Of a stretch of 64,000 bases of DNA, positions 9,394-22,822 are shown in pieces. The notes under the pieces were generated by a model. The model was given only the letters and a program-made list of their open reading frames with translations, searched no databases and was not told the origin of the DNA. The position numbers and the translations under genes are program-made. The DNA comes from an uncultured delta proteobacterium. Its GTDB lineage: Bacteria; Desulfobacterota; RBG-13-43-22. Every line of letters starts with the position of its first letter. Positions within the stretch are counted from its first letter, which is position 1. Location of the stretch: assembly GCA_963743305.1 (NCBI GenBank), contig CAVUPH010000016.1, positions 1 through 64,000 of the forward strand, read 5' to 3'.

Positions 9394-9573
9394 GGCCGGA
9401 GTACACCCTGCAATTTTCCGGTACCCGCGATTAGAGTACTTTGGCACCAATAGAGGTGCCTGGGAGATCGGACCCAATGCCCTCGTACCCTATGTTTATT
9501 TAGAAAGCCCTAATTCTTTTGCTAAAGGCAGGGGAGTGACTTAGCTCCGTAATCGACGCGCCGTTTTATGCAA

Positions 9574-9590
9574 TTTAGAACCAACGTCCC
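9574..9590 (+). repeat. Degenerate copy of the Y1/RAYT end motif
   Basis: TTTAGAACCAACGTCCC vs TTCAGAAACTACGTCCC (reconstituted end at 18657-18661 plus 20429-20442, minus strand): 14/17 identical. Confidence 0.5.
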
Positions 9591-12800: not shown

Positions 12801-15800
12801 GTGAAGACCTGCCGGCCGGTTTCGTTGGAGGCGGCGACGAGGTTGCCGCGCGCATCGTACTCGTAGGCGGCATCCGTACCGCCGGGGTAGTTCTTCGCGA
12901 GAAGCTCGCCGTTCGGGCCGAAGTCGTAGCCGATGCTCTGACCGCGGCGGTTGGTCCAGGCGGTCGGCAGGCCCTTGGCATCGTAGGCCCACCGCTCCAC
13001 GCTGCCGTCGGCATAGGTGATGGCCTGGAGGTTGCCCTGGGGCGTGTAGCTGTAGCGGGTGCCGTTGCCCTTGGCGTCCGTGACCGCGCTGAGGCGGTTC
13101 CATGGCCCGGCGAAGGCGAATCGGGTGGTGCCGCCGAGCGGGTCGGTGCTGGCGGTGAGGTTGCCCCTTGCGAGTCGTAGCCATAGCGGTAGGACCGGCC
13201 GGCCGGGTCGGTGACCTGGGTCAGGTTGTACTTGTCGTCGAACGTCAGGTGCACGGCATGGCCGAGGGCGTTCTCGCTCTTGACCATCAGGCCGCGGTGA
13301 TCGAAGATAGAAGCGGCTGGCGTTGCCGAGCGCGTCGCGCGACGGTCACGCCGCCGGCATTGTCGTACTCGAACGTCACGGTGGCCTCGTTCTCGCCGGT
13401 CCACGTCGAGGCCAGCCGACCCTGCGCGTCGTAGGTGAACGAGCGCTCGCGAGCAGCAGGCCCCGGAGATGTTGGCCAGCGCGTGCCCGCTGCCATACGT
13501 GTACGTCGTCGTGCGGCCGTCGGCCTGCTGCACCTGCGAGAGGTGCTCGCCATCGTAGGTGTAGACCGTCTGCCGCCCGACCGGATCGGTGACGCTTTGG
13601 ATGCGACCCGCCGCCGTTGTAGGCGATCTGGAGGCGACCGTCCGGAGGAGTGGGTCAGGCTGGTAAGGTTGGCGCCGTTGTAGCCGGCGGTGATGCGGTT
13701 GCCGTTAAGGTCCTGCATGTAGTCCAGCATGCCGTCCGCCCGGATAGACGCTGAGGAGGCCGTTGGCTTCCTGAAGGCTGAAGACGGCCGCCGCCGATGA
13801 GAAAGCAGTTTTCCGTGAGTCTCCGCGCTGAGCGAAGTAGTTGCCGTTCGGCTGTCGGGCTGGAACGTGCGGTGCGAGCCTCCCGGGCCGGTGATGGTGA
13901 CCGTGCCATCGGCCGCCGTCGCAAGCGAGTACTGCCAGTTGTGTGACCAGCCGCGACCGAACGGCCCCATGTCGAAGCGCCGGGAGAGGGACTGCGCGAG
14001 GGAACGGCTGAACGTCAAGGCAAGGCCGGGAGCTTCGACGGCGGCATCCACGGCCCCGGCCAGCGAGCGCATCGGGTTGAGGCCATCGGCCTGCATGAAC
14101 TCGAAGCCGAGGAGGTCGCCCAGGTCCAGGACCCGCTCGCCCAGCCGGCCGAGGTAGGCGGCATTGTCGTCCAGCATACGGACGTATCCGCCCCAGGTGT
14201 TGCCCACTTGTGCTGTGAAGTTCGTCCATAGCGCGTCCCATGCCTGGGCATTGATGCTGGGCGGTTTCATGCTGTCCTTGAAATCGGCCCAGTTGACCGG
14301 GGTGGTGTCGTCCGCTTTGACGACGCCCAGTTGCCACTCGATGGGGGGATAGGAGAAATTCCAGGGTTGCTGCCAACCGGCGTAGTACACTGGCACCCGG
14401 ATGCTTTCGCCGGGCTGCAGCACACCTGGTGTAGCCCCGCTGGCCAGCAACTGGACCGAATGGCTGAAACCGTCGGGCTGTGCCGAAGTCCAGAAGCCCT
14501 CGTAAGTCACGATTAGGATCGAGCGTCAGCCAGGCGCCTTCCAGTGCCATTCTGCACCCCCCTGAGTACCAGCAGACGGCGCCGGCATAGTGACATTGCC
14601 GGTATTTTGATACTCGACATAGTGCGTGGCTAGGGCGTGATAGCCAACCGAACTTGGAACGACCAGGCTTGTCGCCAATACCGGCGCCACTCCGCCTCGC
14701 TGATTACCGAAAGGCTTGCGGCAGTTCGACTGGTCGCCGCCCGGGCGTCGCACGCGCAACGTGAAGGTGCCGGCGGGAACGGAATGGCCACGAAGACGGC
14801 GGTAATCTGGGTGAAAAAATCGGTATTAACTGAATAGGCGGGATAGGTGGCGCCCGAGGCGACCAACTCCACCATGGTTGAAGCATCAAAACCCGCCCCG
14901 GTGATGGTTAATACGGCATCCGCGGAATTGGTTTGACGATCGGGCGTCACACCGCTGAGCAGAAGGCCCGAGGCCGTGGCTTGCAGACTATAGATGCTGG
15001 AAGAAGCGGCGTAAGAATTGTAGAGAAGAATGTACCAGGTGCCGGCAGTGGCCAGGGGGACGAGGATCTCCTGGTCGGCGGAAGCAGCCATCTCGAACCG
15101 GTAGTCGTAGTCCGAACGTGTCGGCGGCAATCCGAACTTTAGATAGATTTCGTTGCCATGGCCATTGTCAGCGTCGTCCAGCACCACCCGTAGCGGCATG
15201 CTCGCAGGAACCGTCAAGCGGAAGAGCTGCGCCTGGCCGGTGCCGGCTATTTCGCCGTTGTAGGTGACGCCAAGCGCAAGATCGGTGAGGGTTGTTTCCA
15301 ACATGCGGAAGGTATAGTTGCCTCCTTCCAACCCGCCGGTGCCATAAGCCTTGAGAATGTACGTGCCCGAAACCGGCAAGGTGAAGAGATCGGAATCGCC
15401 TGATATGCCACTGAAGACGATCGCTCCGCCCGGTCCAATGAGATCAAACGCGATGCCCGAACCGGAAGCATTGAGGAGGTCAAAGCGCACCTGCCGGCCG
15501 GCGAGCGCCGAGAAGGTCCAGCGATCGACGCTGTAGGGTGTCTCGAGGGTGCCCATGAACTGTCCGTTTAGCGTCAGTCCCGCGAAATCCGTTGTCACAT
15601 CCCAGAGCGTCACCGTGTAGTTACCTGTGCTGCCGGATTGGGCGGACGGCGTGTGGATGAGAATCCGGTAGGTGCCGTCGGTGGGCAGCGAGATATCCGC
15701 CAGAGTCATGACCATGCCGCCGATTGTGCTGCTGGTCGACGCGAGAATATTGTCGCTTGCGTCCAGGAGAGAGACTTCGACATAGCCCACATACGGGGAT

Positions 15801-18319
15801 GGAGGCGGATTGGCCCCGCCCCCGCCTGGATTGACGGCTACCGTGACCGACCGCCCCCCTGTGCCAAAGAAGGTCCACTCATCAAGCTCGCCTGCCGCGC
15901 CGATACTGCCAGGCGTGGGCGTGGCATATTCAATGGATCCGCTGTCAGGGATCTGAACTACCGTGCCGCCGATGACTTCACCGCCTACCTGCATTAGGCG
16001 CGTATAGAGATGCAGTCCGTTCAAGTCGAGCGTGGTTCCCAAGGGCAGGTTGAGTGAATTGACGTAGAGGGCTTCGGGGTCCGTCCCTGTCGCGTTGTCG
16101 GAGAAATCCACCAGTTTTACATAAGTATTGTTTGCCAGTGCGAGCGAGTTGTACGCGAAGTTATTGGCCATTCCGGTGGAATCGGGTCCGAGATCTCGTC
16201 CCATCACCTCCAGTTGTTGCGGTGTGGTGATGGTTCCAGCACCGTCGAACTGAATGAGCGACCGCGGCGCAAACTGATCGGCGTTCCGGGTGTTGCCCAG
16301 CAGACTGTTCTTAATGGCGATTACACCGGAAGATTGTCCAGCGATCATGCCGAGCCCGTTAACGCTGAGTTCGTCAGAAAGGCCGAGTATTCCGCTGTTT
16401 GCCGTGCCAATGGTTCCCTGGTTGTCTATAGCGCCGCTCAAGGTCAGCGACCTCCCCGAGACATCCGCCTCGATCCGGCCATAATTCACCACCGGGACCC
16501 GAATCTCCCCCTCCCCGTGAATCCACTGACCGGCGCCCACGCTCAGCGACACTCCCGTGGCACCAGAAATCATGGCCGTTGACATACCGCCGGGCAGGGT
16601 GCTCATGAGTATCTGGCCACTGCCCGACAGTGCAAGACTCTGGTCCAGGTAGAGCTCGGCAGGAAAGTAGGTACAGGTAAATATGCCGCACCGATAATTG
16701 CTTCGTAGTTCAAGTGTTCCGTTATTGACGAAACTCTCGCTACCCAATGTCAACCGCGCATCGGTGAACTCGGAAAAGACTACCAGCGTATACCCCGCCG
16801 GCAGGTGATCCGCATAGTCACCAAGCAAACGCGCGCTCGTGCTGTTGATCTGAAACTCGCCCGCCCCTAAGTCCTCCCACGGCACTCCGGTGAGCGTCAC
16901 GTCCCCGGAGAAGCGTATCAGGCTCGCCGCATTGTCCGTCACCCGCAGCATGGCACCGTTGATGGTGCTGTTGGCGATCTCCACCACCCCGCCGTCAGCG
17001 GTGATCACCCCACCCGTGGGCGAGATTGTGCCGCCATCGTTGATGGTACTGTTGACGATCTCCACTCTCCCTCCGTGGGCAACGATCGAGCGCCCTCGGT
17101 TGTCGACGATCGCATTTTCGAGATGCAGCACTCCGCCAGCCGATACGGACCAATCCCTGGGGCCGACAACACCGCTGAGCACAACCGATCCCGACAGCTC
17201 AAATGACCCGCCATCGGTAAGCCCACCAGGGAACGACATCCCTCCGCCGTTCAACACCCGGAGAATCCCGTGGTTCTCGAACCCTGCGACAAACGTCAGC
17301 GACCTCCCCGAGACATCCGCCTCGATCCGGCCATAATTCACCACCGGGACCCGAATCTCCCCCTCCCCGTGAATCCACTGACCGGCGCCCACGCTCAGCG
17401 ACACTCCCGTGGCACCAGAAATCATGGTCTCTGACATACCGCCGGGCAGGGTGCTCATGAGTATCTGGCCACTGCCCGACAGTGCAAGACTCTGGTCCAG
17501 GTAGAGCTCGGCAGGAAAGTGGGTACAGGTAAATATGCCGCACCGATAATTGCTTCGTAGTTCAAGTGTTCCGTTATTCACGAAACTCTCGCTACCCAAT
17601 GTCAACCGCGCATCGGTGAACTCGGAAAAGACTACCAGCGTATACCCCGCCGGCAGGTGATCCGCATAGTCACCAAGCAAACGCGCGCTCGTGCTGTTGA
17701 TCTGAAACTCGCCCGCCCCTAAGTCCTCCCACGGCACTCCGGTGAGCGTCACGTCCCCGGAGAAGCGTATCAGGCTCGCCGCATCGTCCGTCACCCGCAG
17801 CACGCCGCCGTTGATCGTGCTGTCGACGAGAGCGACTATACCTGTGGAAGCCGTGATCACACCTGACGTGTTTGTAACGGTTGCGCCGCTTATTTGCAAT
17901 GTTCCGCCAGCAGCGGCAATACTTCCTGCGTTCGACACATCGCCCGCAAGAATCAGCGCGCTCCCACCAGCCACATCGATGCTTCCTTTGTTGTCGGTCT
18001 GACCTACCACGCTGATAGAGCCGTTCGACACGACGATTGCCTCTGCACTGCTGAGGACGCTCAAGGTGACGCTTTGATCGATGGTAATGGTTGGATTATT
18101 GCCGGGCAGATCGATGATAACCGTATATTCCGTTTCGCTCGTATTGTTTGGAACGATACCGATGTCCCAGTGGGCCGGGTCCGACCAATTGCCCGAGCCA
18201 CCGATCCATCGGGCTATGACCGTAGCTTCCTGCGCCAGTGCCTCACTTCCGGCAAGGATGAACGTTAGACCCAGCACAAGAGAACCGATCAAACTATTGA
18301 TAAGAATTTGCTTTTTCAT
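9885..18319 (-). CDS. Giant secreted RHS/YD-repeat protein (about 2800 aa) read across many frameshifts: signal peptide, passenger-like beta repeats, PPC-like domains, RHS shell and core, variable segment, DPN..TGP...FEN...TAPAQ domain, FN3-like and cadherin/Ig-like domains
   Basis: ORF pieces 14630-18349, 13287-14510, 12641-13000, 12123-12644, 11409-11615 and 9885-11204 are collinear; FGRGWSH, YxYD repeats, NNPIT.IDPEG core end; MKKQ signal peptide with RBS GGGGAG. May be a pseudogene or sequencing error. Confidence 0.8.
16443..17802. repeat. Near-identical ~510-bp intragenic direct repeat (16443-16950 and 17295-17802, offset 852 nt)
   Basis: Both copies encode LRVTD.AASLIRFSGDVTL...RCGIFTCT...IEADVSGRSLT with only a few substitutions. 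Confidence 0.92.
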
Positions 18320-18359
18320 AATGTATAACTCTCCCCAGAAACTGGACATGTCATGTCTT

Positions 18360-18654
18360 TTAATAAAATCTTCGACGGGATGATTCCTGCGGACCCAGTT
18401 TGTTTTGAATCACATCCCATACAATAGGTAAATTGATACCGAAATACTCATGAATGAGAATGTTGCGTAATCTTTTAATCTTACGCCAATCGATATCCGG
18501 CTCATCCTTTTGCATTTGTTCAGGCAGTTTCCCTGCAACCTCACCGATAATCTCAAGGTTCCGGATGATGGCGTCCTGGGTTTTTCGGTCCTTTTTGAAA
18601 GCTTCTTCGTCTTGGTCTGCCAAATATGTTCGGATTTGGTGGATGGCTTCTAAA
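18360..18654 (-). pseudogene. HepT-like (DUF86) HEPN RNase toxin, 5' truncated
   Basis: LEAIHQIRTY...DAIIRNLEIIGE...IDWRKI..LRNILIHEYFGIN..IVWD with RNxxxH motif; the 5' end is cut at the GGGGGAC element end. Confidence 0.8.
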
Positions 18655-18814
18655 GGGGGACATCCTATATTCTTCCTGTCAAGAGGAAATATTTCATTTT
18701 GAGAAAGATAACGATTTTGATTGGATAGGAATTGGGCCATTTTTTGAACGCACCTTCCCAATACGCCTTACGACCAGACGTGATTCGAGTGGTTTCCCCA
18801 GTGCCCACTAACCG

Positions 18815-18990
18815 CGAACTTTAAACCTCAGCCCTTCGACAGCTCAGGTAAACTAATCAGTATCCGGCATCCCACTCGAGGCGGGCACCCAGCATCCCTT
18901 ATCCAGGTTTTAAAGTTTAGTGAGCGGCCCTGATTGTCCCCCTCGAGGTCCGAAATCGGCCTCTACGTAGTTCCTCGGGCTCGCTAAAGG
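18815..18990 (-). ncRNA. Predicted bridge RNA / seekRNA of the IS110 element
   Basis: Two stem-internal-loop-stem domains. Loop 1 carries AACTACGT (18965-18972) and AGGGGGAC (18936-18943), matching the left and right flanks. Loop 2 carries ATAAGGGATG (18893-18902), resembling the donor junction ATATAGGATG. Confidence 0.72.
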
Positions 18991-19008
18991 GAATGACAAG
19001 TTTTCTAG

Positions 19009-20289
19009 TTACGCCGGATTCAGATATCGAGGGTTGTAGGGCTCCTTTTTCTTCATGATCGTCCAGGCGATGATCAAAAGCTTGGCCGACAGCTTGACCC
19101 GCCGTTTGGTTTTGATACCGGGTTCTTTTTCTCGCCCTTGCAATTGATCGGTGTACTGTTCGATCCAGGGGCGATGGCGGGTAGAGGCGATGAAGGCCGC
19201 CTGGTATAAGGCATAGCGCAGATCGGCTTTTCCTTTTTTGGAAATGACCGGGATCACCGTATCCGAGGGTTTCCCGCTCCGCTCGGCGCCCAGATCCAAG
19301 CCGGCCATCTTGAGCACCTGCTTCCGGTTTTGAAAACGGAAGGGATTGCCTAGGGCACCGATCACCTTGGCCGAAACGTCCGGGCCAAAGCCGGGGATGG
19401 TCAGGAGATACCCATATTCCGGAAACTGCCGGCAGGTCTCCCGGATCTGTTCGTCGGTCGTCTTAATGGTCTCCCGGAGTTGCCGCAACCCGTCCACCAT
19501 CACCTCGGCCTCGAAGTGGGCCCCTGCCCCCATCTCGCAACCGATGGAGTCGATGGCCAGTTGCTGGATGGTTCGCAAGCGCTGATGCTGGGCCAGGGTC
19601 TTACGCCCGGAGGCCACCCGCTGGACGAAGTGACCGAACTCCAAACCGGCCAGTTCGGAAGTATCCAAGCACCAGCGGACAATCGATTCCACCTCTGGCC
19701 GCCCACTAAAACGATCCAATTCGGGGAAATACTGCGCTAAGAGGTGGTTCCGAATACGCACCCGATAGCTGTGTTCCTGCTTCTTCAGCTTCTTCTTCAG
19801 CGACAACAGGGTGCGCAGATCCCGGAGCCCCATCTCCGGGTATTCATAGTACAGGCATTTCCCCTGGGAGATCAGGTCGGCGATATTGGCCGCGTCTTTG
19901 CTATCGTGTTTGTCCCAGCGCCCGTCCAAAAGCTCCCGGTTGCGTTTGACCGCTACCCCGGAAACCAGGACCACCATCCGGCCGCATTTAATCAAATGCT
20001 CTCCCAAGGGCTTGTGATAGTTGGCCGTGGGTTCCAAACCAAAGACCGCCTTGGGCAAACCCTGGGCCACCTGGATGGCCCTGACCTGGGTCAGCAGCTT
20101 CTCAAAGCCCTCGATGCAATTGTCAAAAATCAGTCGTCTTACCAGGGTCTTCCCGGTAGCCGTACCAAAGAAGGCATGGTGCTTTTCCTTGGCTACGTCG
20201 ATCCCGACGATCAAATGGTCCTTCGAACCCCGGATCTCTTTCTTGAATTGACGAAACTCTTTGAGCCTGGTATCCTCTACTTCGTTCAT
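19009..20289 (-). CDS. IS110 family recombinase/transposase
   Basis: RuvC-like DEDD domain (GIDVAK, GLEPTANYH, KHDSKDA) plus Transposase_20 domain (TIPGFG, AGL...ERSGK, ISKKG...LR.ALYQAA); intact ORF. Confidence 0.95.
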   Translation of the reverse strand: MNEVEDTRLKEFRQFKKEIRGSKDHLIVGIDVAKEKHHAFFGTATGKTLVRRLIFDNCIEGFEKLLTQVRAIQVAQGLPKAVFGLEPTANYHKPLGEHLIKCGRMVVLVSGVAVKRNRELLDGRWDKHDSKDAANIADLISQGKCLYYEYPEMGLRDLRTLLSLKKKLKKQEHSYRVRIRNHLLAQYFPELDRFSGRPEVESIVRWCLDTSELAGLEFGHFVQRVASGRKTLAQHQRLRTIQQLAIDSIGCEMGAGAHFEAEVMVDGLRQLRETIKTTDEQIRETCRQFPEYGYLLTIPGFGPDVSAKVIGALGNPFRFQNRKQVLKMAGLDLGAERSGKPSDTVIPVISKKGKADLRYALYQAAFIASTRHRPWIEQYTDQLQGREKEPGIKTKRRVKLSAKLLIIAWTIMKKKEPYNPRYLNPA

Positions 20290-20294
20290 TGAAC

Positions 20295-20351
20295 ACCTCC
20301 TGTTTGAGAGTTGAAGTTTGGTCGTGCTTACTTTTTCTCTTAACAGGAGGT
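20295..20351 (-). promoter_or_regulatory. Hairpin sequestering the transposase RBS
   Basis: ACCTCCTGTT (20295-20304) / AACAGGAGGT (20342-20351) inverted repeat containing the AGGAGGT Shine-Dalgarno. Confidence 0.65.
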
Positions 20352-20430
20352 TTTTTATTTGGGAAGATTATATGAATTTTTTTTCTGGCGCAGGCTCGGG
20401 AGCCTATTCCAAATTCTGGGAATATATAAC

Positions 20431-21130
20431 GTAGTTTCTGAATAAACTTGACAGGGGCCGTTTAGAACGCCAGTAAAGGGAACATGCCCAGACAACTGCG
20501 GCTGGATGCCCCCGGGACCCTGCATCACGTCATGGGCCGGGGGATCGAGACCAGCAAGATATTTAGAACCAGGAAAGACCGGGAGGACTTCATCGACCGG
20601 CTGGCGGAATTGTGCCGGTCCGGCAGTTGGGCCGTGTATGCCTGGGCGTTGATGCCCAACCATTTTCACCGCTGGTGCGCACCGGAAAAGAGCCACTGGC
20701 CCGGAGCATGCGGCGCCCGATGACCGGCTACGCCATCAACTTCAACCTGCGGGGCGGAAAGGCCTGCGGATGGCCGCCGATGAGCGCGTTCTGGGCGATA
20801 GGGACTTTCTAGAGGAGATCTGGTCCGAGTCCGCGGAACGGGAAAAGGAAACTCCTAGAAGAAAAGGTCCGGGGATGGATTTGGAGGCCCTGGCCCGGGA
20901 GATCGCCGCGGACCAGGGGATCACCGAAACGGATCTCTGCTCCGGGAGTCGGAAGCGGGAGGTTTCTGAAGCCCGAAGAGGGTTTTGTCGGGCCTCTGTG
21001 GGCTTGCTGGGGTATCCTGTGGCGGCCGTGGCCCGGTTCCTCGGGGTGACCACCGCGGGGGTGGTGCGGGCCGCTCGGACCGGATAATTGCCAGACCGGT
21101 TGCTCGGGGAGAATTATTCAGAAATACCCT
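20431..21130 (+). mobile_element. Decayed REP-associated tyrosine (Y1/HUH) transposase unit with inverted ends
   Basis: Inverted repeat TTTCTGAATAA (20435-20445) / TTATTCAGAAA (21114-21124) brackets the gene; the left end continues as GGGGGAC beyond the IS110. Confidence 0.6.
20484..21087 (+). pseudogene. RAYT-like Y1 transposase with C-terminal HTH; frameshifted and internally deleted
   Basis: MPRQLRLDAPGTLHHVMGRGI...YAWALMPNHFH (HUH), then MTGYAINFN in another frame, then DERVLGD.DF...SGSR..EVSEAR...VARFLGVT tail; central part missing. Confidence 0.8.
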
Positions 21131-21178
21131 CGGCTTTCTGGTATGATCAAGGTTATTCAGGCTATGAGGTGGTGACTT

Positions 21179-21415
21179 ATGTCCGTTGTTTTACAGATGG
21201 ATATGCCGGAAACCGCTTTTTCCTCCACAAGGAAAAGTCCCTCAGAATTTGCGGCCGAGATGCGCCTGGCAGCCGCCGTCAAGTGGTATGAAATGGGGAT
21301 AATATCCCATCGCGAAAGTCTTGAAAAGCTGATAACCGCGAGATGCCATCGAATCATGGCTTTGCCCGGAAGCCCTAACGTGGGAACAGTGGCTGGCCGG
21401 ACAAGAGATGTATGA
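21179..21415 (+). pseudogene. UPF0175 family antitoxin-like protein, 3' truncated
   Basis: MPETAFSSTRKSPSEFAAEMRLAAAVKWYEMGIIS matches the family N-terminus; the expected AAE.AG HTH continuation is absent. Confidence 0.65.
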
Positions 21416-21440
21416 TCAATTATCCAGGAATGGTGAGTCT

Positions 21441-21764
21441 ATGAAACTGGCAGAGAATGAAGAACGGGCATTGAAACGATTGCGAGTGGAATTGTTCGCG
21501 AGATATCCGATCATTGATTTTCGCCTCTATGGATCGAAAGCAAGGGGAGAGGGAAGGCAGGACTCTGATCTGGATGTCATGATAGAACTTCCCGATTATG
21601 ACCGGGGGATGGTAGCAGAGATTGACGACATCGTCTATCGGATCAATCTGGAGCATGATGTTTTCATTTCCGCTCTGGTTTTCGGAAAGGATGAACTGGA
21701 AGAGGGACCGATGTCCGAATCCCCAATTTATAAAGTCATCCAGCGAGAAGGGGTTCCGCTATGA
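21441..21764 (+). CDS. Minimal nucleotidyltransferase (MNT) antitoxin
   Basis: LYGSKARGEGRQDSDLDV motif; ends I.REGVPL; ATGA overlap with HEPN gene. Confidence 0.88.
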   Translation: MKLAENEERALKRLRVELFARYPIIDFRLYGSKARGEGRQDSDLDVMIELPDYDRGMVAEIDDIVYRINLEHDVFISALVFGKDELEEGPMSESPIYKVIQREGVPL

Positions 21765-22192
21765 GCATAGATGAGAAGAAGAAATTGCTCGCCCGGCACA
21801 GATTGCAGCAGGCGGCGGAGAGCCTTCAAGAAGCTCAATATCTCTTCGCTGGCGAGAAAAGCCTCCGCTCTGTGGTTAATCGCGTTTATTATGGAATGTT
21901 CTACGCTGTCCTGGCCCTTCTAATCTATGAGCCCTATGCATCGTCAAAACATAGCGGCGTGTTGGCCTACTTCAACAAACATTTCGTGAAAGGCGGCCTC
22001 TTTTCTGATTCCATGGGGCGTTCTCTAAACAAGGCATTCGAGCTCAGGCAGCGAGGCGATTATCGGGAATATTTCGAACTGACAAAAGATCAGGTGGAGC
22101 CGCTCCTCGATGAGGCTGCACAGTTTGTCGCTGCCGTCCGAAAATATCTGGATGAGAAAGTCGGCTCGCAGGAAAACCAGCATAAGGATTGA
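21761..22192 (+). CDS. HEPN domain protein (UPF0332-like)
   Basis: VNRVYYGMFYAVLALL, SKHSGV..YF...FVK.G and AFELRQRGDY motifs. Confidence 0.88.
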   Translation: MSIDEKKKLLARHRLQQAAESLQEAQYLFAGEKSLRSVVNRVYYGMFYAVLALLIYEPYASSKHSGVLAYFNKHFVKGGLFSDSMGRSLNKAFELRQRGDYREYFELTKDQVEPLLDEAAQFVAAVRKYLDEKVGSQENQHKD

Positions 22193-22199
22193 TACTTTG

Positions 22200-22475
22200 A
22201 TGAAAGATCAATCATTTAAAGACTGGTTGCAACAGCAGATCCAAGTTGTCCTCGCCACAGCAAGAGCGCCGATCCCGTTTATTCTCTGGTGCGACCCGCA
22301 GCGGGAATGGAAAGAAATTCTCCGATTTCAGGGTCCTATCATCCGGTATGACCTGGTCGCCTTCGACGAGGTGGCCGGTCCCAATTTCAAAAAGGAAAAC
22401 GACAAGCTTTTGCGGCAAAGAGACGACGAGGCCGCCGGGTTTTGGGTCGGTACCGCGCGGAATGACCATATATAA
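22200..22475 (+). pseudogene. Chimeric remnant: PglZ-like N-terminus joined to a BrxL-like internal fragment
   Basis: FILWCDPQREWKEIL resembles the PglZ N-terminal W.DP..EW motif; G.I.RYDLVAFDEVAG..FK resembles the BrxL Walker-B region. Confidence 0.5.
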
Positions 22476-22501
22476 GGATTTTGAGGCCAAAGGGGATTGT
22501 C

Positions 22502-22822
22502 ATGCTAACCCATGAAGATCAGGGAGTGTTAACGGAATTGACTGCTCGGATCAGGGAGCGATTTCCCGGCGCGCGCGTCTGGGCTTATGGATCAAGAGCC
22601 CGTGGGACGGCGGCCTGGGATTCCGATTTCGATGTCTGCATCGTACTCCCACAGGTTGATCAGGAGATAGACCGCTGGATACGGGATATGGCCTGGGAGG
22701 TCGGGTTCGAAAACGACCGCGTCATAACCACTGTGGTCATGGATCAGGAGGAGTTTGAACACGGCCCCATGTCCGAAAGTACCCTGGTTGGTAATATCCT
22801 GCAGGAGGGGGTGGCGGCCTGA
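22502..22822 (+). CDS. Orphan minimal nucleotidyltransferase (MNT)
   Basis: VWAYGSRARGTAAWDSDFDVCIV; ends NILQEGVAA; no HEPN partner follows. Confidence 0.85.
   Translation: MLTHEDQGVLTELTARIRERFPGARVWAYGSRARGTAAWDSDFDVCIVLPQVDQEIDRWIRDMAWEVGFENDRVITTVVMDQEEFEHGPMSESTLVGNILQEGVAA

What the first reader, a model, noticed from the sequence alone, without database searches (positions are those of the whole stretch)
20429..21130. The IS110 target is the terminal motif of a Y1/RAYT transposase unit (an element programmed against another element)
Seen: removing the IS110 restores GGGGGACGTAGTTTCTGAATAA about 40-60 nt upstream of the HUH transposase start. An inverted, decayed counterpart TTATTCAGAAATACCCT lies just after its stop (21114-21130), and a third related motif TTTAGAACCAACGTCCC sits at 9574-9590. 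Outside the left end the HepT gene is cut at the motif, as expected for a true element terminus. Established: IS621 targets enterobacterial REPs. Inference: this IS110 lineage uses its RNA guide to home into the ends of RAYT-type units, either as a safe harbour or as a hyperparasite that disables the end. The host transposase here is indeed decayed. I do not know this pairing to be described.
Basis: partly seen in the sequence, partly recalled or inferred. Interest (0 to 1): 0.75.

Follow-up and report, generated by a model that had tools for sequence, protein, structure and literature searches.

The report
RNA-guided IS110 element targeting TIRtron ends
An RNA-guided insertion sequence of the IS110 family has landed five bases inside the terminal repeat of another, unrelated small transposon, and its relatives in several phyla carry guides matched to the local version of that same repeat.

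Summary
A 1769-bp IS110-family element (window 18662-20430, transposase on the minus strand) splits the sequence GGGGGAC|GTAGTTTCTGAATAA. This lies 53 nt upstream of a decayed Y1/HUH transposase gene. The Y1 unit is not a REP/RAYT unit. It is a 'TIRtron': a TIRYT gene (Y1 domain plus a C-terminal HTH) between about 20-bp terminal inverted repeats that begin GGGAC. Intact units in relatives carry the motif inverted at both ends, about 1.07-1.08 kb apart.

The IS encodes a roughly 200-nt structured RNA downstream of its transposase. 22 of 43 predicted pairs show compensatory changes. One internal loop carries AACTACGT (same sense as the left target plus core) and GGGGGAC (complement of core plus right target). 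Across 22 junctions the left guide co-varies with the left flank; 0 of 10,000 shuffles reach the observed match. The right guide GGGAC and the right flank CCC are nearly constant.

11 of 39 distinct insertions lie within 110 nt of a TIRYT gene, 9 at the 5' end and 2 at the 3' end. Most of the rest sit in solo repeats of the same type. Chlorobi and gammaproteobacterial MAGs show the same pairing.

The kind is known (IS4321/IS5075 into Tn21 ends; IS621 and ISPa11 into REPs). This pairing was not found in print. Antagonism is untested.

The parts
18360..18661 (-). HepT (HEPN ribonuclease toxin) remnant. It is truncated at its 5' end where it meets the TIRtron tip. The listed ORF 18360-18761 borrows 33 codons and a TTG start from the IS.
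   Evidence: Pfam HepT-like E 2e-28, ORF residues 37-122 matching profile positions 2-110. The restored frame has no start codon.
18655..18661 (+). Outer tip of the TIRtron 5' terminal inverted repeat (GGGGGAC). Read from the IS, this is the core (AC = GT on the other strand) plus the right target CCCCC.
   Evidence: The same GGGAC tip starts the repeats of TIRYT units in relatives.
18662..20430 (-). IS110-family insertion sequence, 1769 bp counted with one copy of the core dinucleotide.
   Evidence: Boundaries come from comparison with copies on C29, C24, C23 and C6 and with relatives.
18677..18682 (-). TTGACA near the right end of the IS. In a circular right-end/left-end junction it would stand 17 nt from TATATA of the left end, giving a junction promoter. 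This is inferred.
   Evidence: Spacing computed. Not tested.
18794..18993 (-). Structured non-coding RNA (bridge RNA / seekRNA type) in the 347-nt region downstream of the transposase. It has two stem-enclosed internal loops.
   Evidence: RNAalifold and pair counts: 93.6% of cells paired against 31-47% when slid; 22 of 43 pairs have compensatory changes. No Rfam family matched.
18965..18972 (-). Left target guide AACTACGT. It has the same sense as the left target plus core.
   Evidence: coordinates; covariation with flanks.
18936..18942 (-). Right target guide GGGGGAC, the complement of core plus right target GTCCCCC.
   Evidence: GGGAC is present in 21 of 22 rows; the exception is a mis-parsed, internally deleted copy.
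18832..18865 (-). 3' side of the putative donor-binding loop. This copy has 20-23 extra bases where all other aligned copies read GATAACG (the candidate right donor guide).
   Evidence: Alignments A1 and A2. The effect on function is unknown.
19009..20289 (-). Transposase gene, 426 aa, open.
   Evidence: PF01548 80.1 bits and PF02371 63 bits. NF033542 'IS110 family RNA-guided transposase' 164.2 bits against a cut-off of 140. Distant match to IS621 and ISCro4 chains.
20290..20430 (-). Left end of the IS, 141 nt upstream of the transposase start. It begins GTTATATA in the transposase orientation.
20431..20453 (+). Inner part of the TIRtron 5' repeat (GTAGTTTCTGAATAAAC) followed by a -35-like TTGACA at 20448-20453.
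   Evidence: TTGACA is at the same offset in 7 of the 11 Y1-adjacent junctions.
20484..21087 (+). Decayed TIRYT gene. It matches residues 1-62, then 61-90 in another frame, then 212-315 of the intact paralog on C30. The stretch that holds the catalytic tyrosine is deleted.
   Evidence: tblastn. Pfam Y1_Tnp 17 bits (below cut-off) and Bac_DnaA_C 19.7 bits (below cut-off) on the fragments.
21114..21130 (+). Degenerate 3' terminal repeat of the TIRtron. It lacks the ACGT-CCC target, so it is not a site for the IS.
9573..9590 (-). Solo repeat of the 'B' type (GGGACGTTGGTTCTAAAT). It is an unoccupied potential target with no Y1 gene.

Best explanation
An IS110-family element has inserted into the 5' terminal inverted repeat of a dead TIRtron. 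The element has a DEDD transposase and its long non-coding region lies downstream of the gene, as in the IS1111 group. A TIRtron is a roughly 1.09-kb unit: a TIRYT gene (Y1/HUH domain plus C-terminal HTH) between about 20-bp inverted repeats that begin GGGAC. The insertion lies between the fifth and sixth base of the repeat.

The non-coding region encodes a roughly 200-nt RNA with two internal loops. In the first loop, one strand repeats the 6-9 bases to the left of the insertion point plus the GT core, so it would pair with the bottom strand. The other strand is complementary to GT plus CCC, so it would pair with the top strand. The right guide and the repeat tip are constant. The left guide differs between close copies and matches the local repeat variant.

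The lineage therefore homes to TIRtron ends (both ends) and to solo copies of the same repeat, in Thermodesulfobacteriota, Chlorobi and a gammaproteobacterial MAG.

Shown here: element boundaries, shared target, RNA structure, guide/target covariation, and association with TIRYT genes.
Inferred: RNA-guided recombination through a circular intermediate, by homology with IS621 and the IS1111 family.
Left open: the most economical biological reading is a multi-copy, dispensable safe harbour. Whether the insertion also cripples the TIRtron is not known.
For: Boundaries and shared target:
- 5 of 5 left and 5 of 5 right junctions in this genome read GGAC|IS|GTWG.
- 20 left and 16 right junctions in relatives read NAC|GT...GT|CCC.
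- Wider relatives keep the ends GTTATATA...TATAGGAT.

Guides:
- AACTACGT and GGGGGAC flank a hairpin 40-70 nt after the stop codon.
- Guide/flank identity sums to 142, against 108.6 +/- 6.0 in shuffles; 0 of 10,000 shuffles reach it. Three artefact rows were kept in the test.
- Matched classes include AACTAC, ACCAAC, TGAACAAC, AGAAACAAC, ATGGACAAC, GGAAGAAC and AAGGGC.
- The right flank is CCC in 17 of 18 junctions.

RNA structure:
- 93.6% of cells paired against 31-47% when slid. 22 pairs have compensatory changes against 6-12 when slid. Covariation score 0.434 against at most 0.128.

TIRtron identity:
- Inverted motif pairs lie 1053-1064 nt apart around open 320-337 aa Y1 genes.
- Y1_Tnp scores 42.6 bits on the intact paralog.
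- The class is described in PMC3733652 and in bioRxiv 10.1101/279083.

Association:
- 11 of 39 distinct junctions are within 110 nt of a Y1 gene.
- One intact unit in G002 has an IS at both ends.
- 10 of 13 Y1 loci of this genome carry the motif at about -59.

Independent phyla:
- In four distant genomes (G041, G043, G044, G045), most of the 13 full-length TIRYT genes printed have GGGAC-tipped sequence at one or both ends.
- The guide of the resident IS fits a local repeat in three of them: G041 8 of 8, G045 8 of 9, G043 6 of 8. In G044 only ACAAC is shared.
- L113 has an IS in the 3' repeat of an intact TIRYT.
Against: - 28 of 39 junctions have no recognisable Y1 gene within 1.5 kb, so 'TIRtron end' there rests on sequence likeness of the flank alone. 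Some flanks are not obviously of that type (L100, L103, L035, L105, L084).
- Some guide/flank pairs fit poorly: C24 has one mismatch, L104 4 of 10, L084 3 of 10.
- The donor-loop guides are invariant, so covariation cannot support them.
- The window copy carries a 20-23-nt insertion at the candidate right donor guide and may not be autonomous.
- No direct evidence of RNA expression, circles or excision was obtained. The laid runs were contigs only.
- Related copies are not independent, which inflates the shuffle test.
- In this genome 6 random-looking sites fit the 11-nt core and none is occupied. Base pairing alone may therefore not define the target.
Confidence: 0.85

Rival explanations
1. 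Hyperparasite reading. The IS is selected to disable TIRtrons. By cutting off the outer five bases of the repeat it immobilises that end, and the two element families are in an arms race in which repeats diversify and left guides follow.
For: - The insertion point is inside the repeat, 5 bp from its tip, at both kinds of end.
- Left-guide variants differ between copies that are 88-96% identical, and they track repeat subfamilies.
- The window's TIRYT is dead.
Against: - Three occupied units have open full-length TIRYT genes: C24 333 aa, G002:C15 333 aa with an IS at both ends, L113 323 aa.
- Unoccupied units are decayed about as often. My rough tally is 3 intact of 9 scorable occupied units against 6 of 13 unoccupied.
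- The Y1 promoter-like boxes are left untouched.
- Nobody has shown what the TIRYT needs at its ends.
Confidence: 0.15
2. Coincidence of a short target. The IS recognises only about 11 bases (AACNAC-GT-CCC), which happen to occur in this repeat. There is no special relation to Y1 units.
For: - The specified part of the target is short, and 6 of 14 unoccupied matches to the loose core in this genome look random.
- Most insertions are not beside a Y1 gene.
Against: - None of the random-looking sites is occupied, while the 5 junctions of this genome whose left flank is preserved sit in repeat-type sequence. The sixth, decayed copy on C6 keeps only its GGGGAC flank.
- A Y1 gene end within 110 nt of 11 of 39 junctions is far above what 13 Y1 loci in 4.9 Mb would give by chance.
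- The pairing recurs in other phyla with different left targets, each matching a local TIRtron repeat.
Confidence: 0.05
3. Reverse causation. The Y1 unit, or its repeat, inserts next to pre-existing IS110 copies.
For: Both are mobile, and adjacency alone does not give a direction.
Against: - Intact uninterrupted repeats exist at many TIRYT ends.
- The IS splits the repeat, leaving GGGAC on one side and the rest on the other.
- The IS RNA carries sequences matching both halves.
Confidence: 0.02

Closest known systems
[quoted passage not shown] I saw this only as the title of Partridge and Hall 2003 in the reference list of PMC11187229.
   Same: A DEDD-transposase IS inserts at one fixed position and orientation inside the terminal inverted repeat of an unrelated transposon. 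The long non-coding region lies downstream of the transposase.
   Different: The target here is the repeat of a Y1/HUH TIRtron, not of a Tn3-family transposon. The hosts are environmental Thermodesulfobacteriota and Chlorobi. The subterminal inverted repeats of this IS are short (about 7-9 bp, imperfect), against the 11-13 bp stated for the IS1111 family. I did not compare the proteins.
IS621, ISPpu9, ISPpu10 and ISPa11: IS110/IS1111 elements that insert into REP sequences. Sources seen: passages, a reference title, abstracts.
   Same: RNA-guided insertion into a short repeated sequence that is the cognate DNA of a Y1 transposase family (RAYT there, TIRYT here). The target is multi-copy and intergenic, and orientation is fixed.
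   Different: REPs are abundant hairpins. These repeats are not palindromic and are few: 1-10 matches per genome in the 19 of 21 family genomes that have any, and none in two. About a third flank the transposase gene itself. IS621 has its RNA upstream of the gene. Protein similarity to IS621 is remote (E 2.8e-13).
TIRtrons / TIRYTs. Sources seen: passages of Di Nocera et al. 2013, PMC3733652, and of Quentin et al. 2018, subclass 2.1, bioRxiv 10.1101/279083.
   Same: A Y1 transposase with HUH and tyrosine motifs and a C-terminal HTH resembling Bac_DnaA_C, flanked by terminal inverted repeats instead of REPs, with small families of solo repeats. The repeat tip begins GGGG.
   Different: The published repeat consensus is GGGGWSAS. 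These repeats read GGGGACGT, which fits 6 of 8 positions. No IS110 association is mentioned in either paper: IS110 occurs 0 times in PMC3733652, and once in the other paper, only as a comparison family.
IS1111-attC group (ISKpn4, ISPst6), which target attC sites of integron cassettes. Seen as passages.
   Same: The same IS family homes into the recombination site of another mobile genetic system.
   Different: The target there is a folded attC site of an integron, not a transposon end.

Membership tests
IS110 family (DEDD, RNA-guided) | N-terminal DEDD/RuvC-like domain PF01548 | tested here: met
   80.1 bits against a cut-off of 29
IS110 family (DEDD, RNA-guided) | C-terminal Transposase_20 domain PF02371 | tested here: met
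   63 bits against a cut-off of 21.3
IS110 family (DEDD, RNA-guided) | NCBIfam equivalog NF033542 | tested here: met
   164.2 bits against a cut-off of 140
IS110 family (DEDD, RNA-guided) | The same core dinucleotide at both junctions, with no terminal inverted repeats and no longer target duplication | tested here: met
   GT at both junctions in all copies
IS110 family (DEDD, RNA-guided) | Non-coding RNA with a target-binding loop whose two strands match the two target flanks | tested here: met
   Structure with covariation; guide/flank covariation
IS110 family (DEDD, RNA-guided) | A donor-binding loop that matches the element's own ends | tested here: inconclusive
   GGATG and ATAAC in the second loop fit the right-end and left-end tips, but they are invariant. 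The window copy has an insertion there.
IS110 family (DEDD, RNA-guided) | Circular intermediate with a junction promoter; RNA bound by the transposase | not testable with these tools
   Only the TTGACA-17 nt-TATATA geometry of a would-be junction could be shown.
IS1111 group | The long non-coding region lies downstream of the transposase | tested here: met
   347 nt downstream against 141 nt upstream. The criterion is from PMC11187229.
IS1111 group | Subterminal inverted repeats of 11-13 bp | tested here: not met
   Only about 7-9 bp (TATATTC..) in the window copy, read directly. They are weaker in the other copies.
IS1111 group | Transposase related over its full length to that of IS1111 | not tested
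   No IS1111 sequence was at hand.
TIRtron / TIRYT | Y1_Tnp domain with HUH motif and catalytic tyrosine | tested here: met
   The intact paralog on C30 scores 42.6 bits against a cut-off of 23, and HFH and RYIHLN are visible in its sequence. The window copy itself scores only 17 bits and lacks the tyrosine stretch.
TIRtron / TIRYT | The gene is flanked by terminal inverted repeats, not REP hairpins | tested here: met
   Inverted pairs in the C24 unit and in L046, L050, L061, L065 and L073. The same is seen in distant genomes.
TIRtron / TIRYT | Repeat motif GGGGWSAS (majority type) | tested here: inconclusive
   GGGGACGT fits 6 of 8 positions.
TIRtron / TIRYT | C-terminal HTH of Bac_DnaA_C type (subclass 2.1) | tested here: inconclusive
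   The window fragment scores 19.7 bits, below the cut-off of 31.5. The intact paralog shows no hit at E 0.01 or better.
RAYT (REP-associated tyrosine transposase) | NCBIfam equivalog NF047646 | tested here: not met
   58.6 bits against a cut-off of 80
RAYT (REP-associated tyrosine transposase) | Flanking palindromic REPs present in high copy number | tested here: not met
   The motif is not palindromic by eye and gives 0-10 matches per family genome, none in two of the 21. No fold was computed.

The most novel reading that the evidence does not exclude
This IS lineage is an old specialist on TIRtron ends, found across at least three phyla. Its right guide is locked onto the invariant GGGAC tip of the repeats. 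Its left guide is re-written again and again to follow the diversifying inner repeat. Because the insertion severs the tip from the rest of the repeat, the IS acts as a natural RNA-guided anti-transposon: a hyperparasite co-evolving with a HUH transposon.
Probability: 0.2. Interest if true: 0.75.

Novelty: new member of a known kind. Interest (0 to 1): 0.5.

Why it matters
- It adds a new target class, the ends of Y1/HUH TIRtrons, to the short list of things IS110/IS1111 elements home into (REPs, attC sites, Tn21 ends).
- It does so with a ready-made natural series. At least eight left-guide/left-target classes sit on one conserved RNA scaffold, with a fixed 5-base right guide. This is useful for working out how bridge and seek RNAs are re-programmed and how little right-side pairing is enough.
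- It gives a handle on TIRtrons, which are barely studied. The IS marks their true tips, and their solo repeats can be catalogued through it.
- If the insertion also disables the TIRtron, this would be a clear case of one transposon family policing another.

Tried and rejected
- Rfam scan of 18400-21300 at E up to 5 gave only a chance snoRNA hit, so no curated family covers this RNA.
- I considered filing the Y1 unit as a REP/RAYT unit and rejected it. The NCBIfam score is below the cut-off, and the flanks are inverted repeats, not hairpins.
- I looked by eye for a conserved hairpin in the 5' ends and found none shared by the subfamilies. No fold was computed.
- The short core AACWACGTCCC as an enrichment test is uninformative on its own: 5 unoccupied sites, 2 at Y1 ends, 1 solo repeat, 2 random-looking.
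- Public runs. No run held more than 27% of the sampled words, and all four runs laid were contigs. They show relatives of the IS with other flanks at about 18656 and 20443. One contig of X1 runs from the IS left end into sequence that resembles a TIRtron 3' end. Nothing can be said about expression, circles or excision. Depth in the two RNA libraries mirrors the DNA run and is not evidence of transcription.
- L082 looked like a tandem or circle junction because its flank ends TATAGGAT|GT. The flank is not IS sequence, so this is an insertion into a site that resembles the element's own right end.
- The 3' repeat of L069 is followed by GTTATAT..., but there is no IS there. This is unexplained.
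- The occupied-versus-unoccupied tally of intact TIRYT genes is small and partly cut by contig ends, so it does not discriminate.
- Supplementary files of the papers were not opened. Figure 9 and Additional file 5 of PMC3733652 (lists of repeats and TIRYTs) could show whether this exact repeat type is already listed.
- Literature searches behind 'not found in print': IS110+RAYT (16 papers hold both terms, 14 were listed, judged by title and abstract), seekRNA+IS1111, 'Y1 transposase'+DnaA, TIRYT (3 papers hold the term, 2 listed, both read by passages), IS110/TIRtron from 2024 (TIRtron has 0 occurrences in each of the 5 papers listed out of 772).
Full report
**1. What is at the coordinates**

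The window is contig C16 of a 4.9-Mb, 43-contig assembly. Between 18662 and 20430 lies a 1769-bp element. Its only long ORF (19009-20289, minus strand, 426 aa) carries both IS110-family domains: PF01548 at 80.1 bits and PF02371 at 63 bits. It also passes the NCBIfam equivalog 'IS110 family RNA-guided transposase', 164.2 bits against a cut-off of 140. It is only remotely similar to the solved IS621 and ISCro4 proteins (E about 1e-13).

The boundaries come from comparison with the other copies in the same genome:
- full-length copies on C29 (91% identical) and C24 (87-88%);
- a copy cut by the end of contig C29;
- two internally deleted copies on C23 and C6.

Read in the transposase orientation the structure is flank-...AAACTAC | GT TATATATTCCC ... 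ATAGGAT | GT CCCCC-flank. The dinucleotide GT stands at both junctions.

**2.

- The junction is 53 nt upstream of the ATG at 20484. That ATG starts a gene beginning MPRQLRLDAPG.
- The gene matches an intact 337-aa paralog on C30 over residues 1-62, then 61-90 in another frame, then 212-315. It has lost the stretch with the catalytic tyrosine.
- The inverted counterpart at 21114-21130 is real but degenerate. The same degenerate block follows the paralogs on C30, C6 and C34.
- The third motif, at 9573-9590, is a solo copy in intergenic DNA.
- The HepT ORF to the left meets the motif three codons before its Pfam match starts, at profile position 2. In the IS-free sequence the frame has a stop 11 codons upstream and no start codon. 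HepT is therefore a truncated remnant, and no partner antitoxin gene lies on that strand beyond the unit.

**3. What the Y1 unit is**

The intact paralog passes Pfam Y1_Tnp (42.6 bits) but not the RAYT equivalog (58.6 against 80). The C24 unit has a clean inverted repeat. Its 5' end reads GGGGGAC|GTTGTTTCTAAATTGCA, and its 3' end is the reverse complement of GGGACGTTCGTTCTAAATTGCA.

In relatives, six units have the 18-mer motif at one end and an inverted copy 1053-1064 nt further on, around open genes of about 320-335 aa. The sequence outside GGGAC differs from copy to copy, so the unit starts at or within a base or two of GGGAC.

This architecture has a name in print. Di Nocera et al. 2013 called such genes TIRYTs and the units TIRtrons. 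They reported small families of solo or paired repeats and a common motif GGGGWSAS (passages). Quentin et al. 2018 placed most of them in a subclass 2.1 with a C-terminal HTH that resembles Bac_DnaA_C (passages). The window fragment shows that domain only weakly (19.7 bits). GGGGACGT fits 6 of the 8 consensus positions.

The unit is therefore a TIRtron, not a REP/RAYT unit.

**4. The motif is a real, low-copy repeat family**

With up to one mismatch, the 18-mer GGGACGTWGKTTCTRRAT occurs 90 times in 19 of 21 genomes of the taxonomic family. The reversed control pattern occurs once.
- Of the 30 loci returned, 10 have a Y1 gene or fragment beside the motif and 20 are solo.
- In the window's genome, 10 of 13 Y1 loci carry the motif (intact, degenerate or IS-split) at about -59. 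The three without it belong to a different Y1 subfamily.
- A -35-like TTGACA follows the motif at a fixed distance.

**5. The IS carries a structured RNA with matching guides**

The region after the stop codon is 347 nt long, against 141 nt before the start. This is the layout that Siddiquee et al. 2024 give for the IS1111 group (passages). The subterminal repeats here are short (about 7-9 bp), however, so I do not file the element under IS1111.

Forty to seventy bases after the stop, AACTACGT and GGGGGAC flank a small hairpin. The first is identical to the left target plus core. The second is complementary to the core plus right target.

An alignment of 18 copies, including ones from Smithella-, Desulfobulbia- and Chlorobi-labelled records, folds into two stem-enclosed internal loops. 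22 of 43 pairs show compensatory changes. Against controls, 93.6% of cells pair compared with 31-47% when the partners are slid, and the covariation score is 0.434 against at most 0.128. In control (a), 0 of 500 shuffles reached the observed share of paired cells, the number of cells changed on both sides, or the covariation score; 1 of 500 reached the number of pairs with a change on both sides and 10 of 500 the number of further pair types. Rfam has no family for it.

The second loop contains GGATG and ATAAC, which fit the right-end and left-end tips. These are invariant, so they are only a plausible donor loop. The window copy has 20-23 extra bases exactly there, so it may depend on RNA from another copy.

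A would-be right-end/left-end junction places TTGACA 17 nt from TATATA. This is the classical junction-promoter geometry. It is inferred here, not shown.

**6. Guide and target co-vary**

For 22 junctions with both a left flank and a parsed guide, identity over ten positions sums to 142. Shuffled pairings give 108.6 +/- 6.0, and 0 of 10,000 shuffles reach the observed value. Three rows that are parsing artefacts or odd sites (L045, L091, L082) were left in, which works against the result.

Matched classes include:

| Class | Matching bases | Where |
|---|---|---|
| AACTAC | 6 | window |
| ACCAAC | 6 | G002 |
| TGAACAAC | 8 | G012 |
| AGAAACAAC | 9 | G018 |
| ATGGACAAC | 9 | G019 |
| GGAAGAAC | 8 | a Chlorobiales MAG |
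| AAGGGC | 6 | Smithella record |

Misfits exist: C24 (guide AACTAC in an AACAAC site), L104 and L084. The right flank is CCC in 17 of 18 junctions, and the right guide ends in GGGAC in 21 of 22 rows. Copies that are 88-96% identical carry different left guides, so re-programming is recent. Related copies are not independent, so the shuffle count is not a probability.

**7. Where the copies sit**

Of 39 distinct left junctions with at least 224 nt of flank, 11 have a Y1 gene within 110 nt on the left-target side. Nine are at the 5' end, 47-106 nt from the start and divergent. Two are at the 3' end.
- In G002, one intact 333-aa TIRtron has an IS in each repeat, both with their left ends facing the unit.
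- Most other flanks are recognisably of repeat type: the 'A/B' type GTWGKTTCT..., a 'C' type GTYGTTCACYNRRTTCAG, a GTGCA type and a GTTGTCCA type. Each type has at least one member beside a Y1 gene.
- A few flanks are not obviously related.

In this genome the 5 junctions whose left flank is preserved lie in repeat-type sequence; the decayed copy on C6 keeps only its GGGGAC flank. None of the six random-looking matches to the loose 11-nt core is occupied. Numbers are small, but this suggests either purging of harmful insertions or a further layer of recognition. Such a layer (a target DNA hairpin) is reported for ISPpu10 in a 2026 preprint (abstract only).

**8. Independent test in distant genomes**

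I searched five genomes that hold more distant copies of the IS (50-59% protein identity) for TIRYT genes. Four of the five have several. For the 13 full-length genes printed, the tip GGGAC is seen upstream and/or ACGTCCC or GCGTCCC downstream in most; in several one end shows nothing within the stretch printed, and L128 shows none upstream.

The resident IS guide fits a local repeat:

| Genome | IS guide | Local repeat (in target orientation) |
|---|---|---|
| G041 | GGAACAAC | GGAACAAC-GT-CCCC (from a repeat reading GGGGACGTTGTTCC) |
| G043 | ..GCGAAC, actual flank TTGCGAGC | TTGCGAGC-GT-CCC |
| G045 | TCAACAAC | GTCAACAAC-GT-CCC |

In G044 only ACAAC is shared between the IS guide and a local repeat. 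In G045 another copy of the IS sits in the 3' repeat of an intact 323-aa TIRYT (L113). The pairing is therefore not a peculiarity of one family.

**9. Mechanism, and what is not shown**

Most likely (0.85): RNA-guided DEDD recombination. The left guide pairs with the bottom strand of the inner repeat, and the right guide pairs with the top strand of the tip. Exchange occurs at the GT core.

The constant right guide matches the only part of the repeat that is constant across subfamilies. The variable left guide matches the variable part. Beyond the tip lies arbitrary host DNA, which explains why right-side pairing is limited to the core plus three bases.

Whether the site is merely a dispensable, multi-copy, horizontally travelling safe harbour or whether the IS harms the TIRtron is open. 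The tip is separated from the rest of the repeat by 1.8 kb. However, three occupied units keep open genes, and unoccupied units decay about as often. I obtained no evidence of transcription, circles or excision.

**10. Comparison with what is known**

IS110/IS1111 elements that home into repeats or into other mobile elements are established:
- IS4321/IS5075 into Tn21-family terminal repeats;
- ISKpn4 and ISPst6 into attC sites;
- ISPa11, IS621, ISPpu9 and ISPpu10 into REPs.

Natural re-direction of a seekRNA is also described, for ISEc11 against ISXne4. What I did not find in print is this pairing with TIRtrons. The two papers that use the word TIRYT do not link it to IS110. I could not open supplementary files.

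Verdict: a real feature, correctly read by the first stage. It is a new member of a known kind, of moderate interest.

Noticed in passing
window 18832-18865 (minus strand): The window's IS copy has 20-23 extra bases in the 3' strand of the second (putative donor) loop of its RNA, where all 17 other aligned copies read GATAACG. The transposase ORF is intact, so this copy may need RNA supplied in trans.
   Followed up: partly
window 18360-18761 (minus strand): The truncated HepT remnant gains 33 codons and a TTG start from the right end of the IS, giving a chimeric 133-aa ORF. No partner MntA gene is present on that strand.
   Followed up: partly
window 21131-21190; also G000:C6 about 109000-109135: The 3' ends of four 'A-type' TIRtrons carry an outward-facing extended -10-like box (TGGTATGAT, TGGTATAAT or TGTTATAAT). 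In two of them (window and C6), homology continues into the ribosome-binding site and start of a UPF0175-type antitoxin gene. On C6 this is followed by a PIN-like ORF.
   Followed up: no
G000:C6:106769-110200: The arrangement is rearranged. The Y1 gene is preceded by ...AATAAC|GTAGTTTC, which looks like a few bases of an IS left end fused to the inner repeat. The decayed IS body, with its GGGGAC flank, lies about 1.5 kb downstream of the gene. This suggests recombination between IS copies at the two ends.
   Followed up: no
L082:2330-2360: One IS copy in a Smithella-labelled MAG sits at a site whose left flank ends TATAGGAT|GT. That is identical to the element's own right-end tip, although the flank is not IS sequence. 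It may be an insertion directed by the donor guide rather than the target guide.
   Followed up: partly
L069 (G002:C15), 3' end of the TIRYT unit: The 3' repeat reads ...AACCAAC|GTTATATTATTGGGAT.... These are the first bases of an IS left end, but no IS follows. It could be a deletion footprint or chance.
   Followed up: partly
G000:C9:1-12000: This is a cluster of TIRtron debris: three Y1 fragments, one 'C-type' solo repeat with a roughly 330-bp non-coding sequence that is also found beside the C29 IS copy, and one further solo repeat.
   Followed up: partly
L052 (G017:C73), about 1500-1670: Two inverted copies of the repeat lie about 150 nt apart with no gene between them, like a miniature (MITE- or REPIN-like) derivative of a TIRtron.
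   Followed up: no
window 14630-18349 (minus strand): A 1239-aa secreted-looking protein contains a long internal duplication: two near-identical blocks of about 190 aa are visible in the translation.
   Followed up: no
window 21179-22822: A run of toxin-antitoxin-type genes lies right after the TIRtron: a UPF0175 fragment, a nucleotidyltransferase plus HEPN pair (21408-22192), and a second nucleotidyltransferase-like ORF (22481-22822).
   Followed up: no
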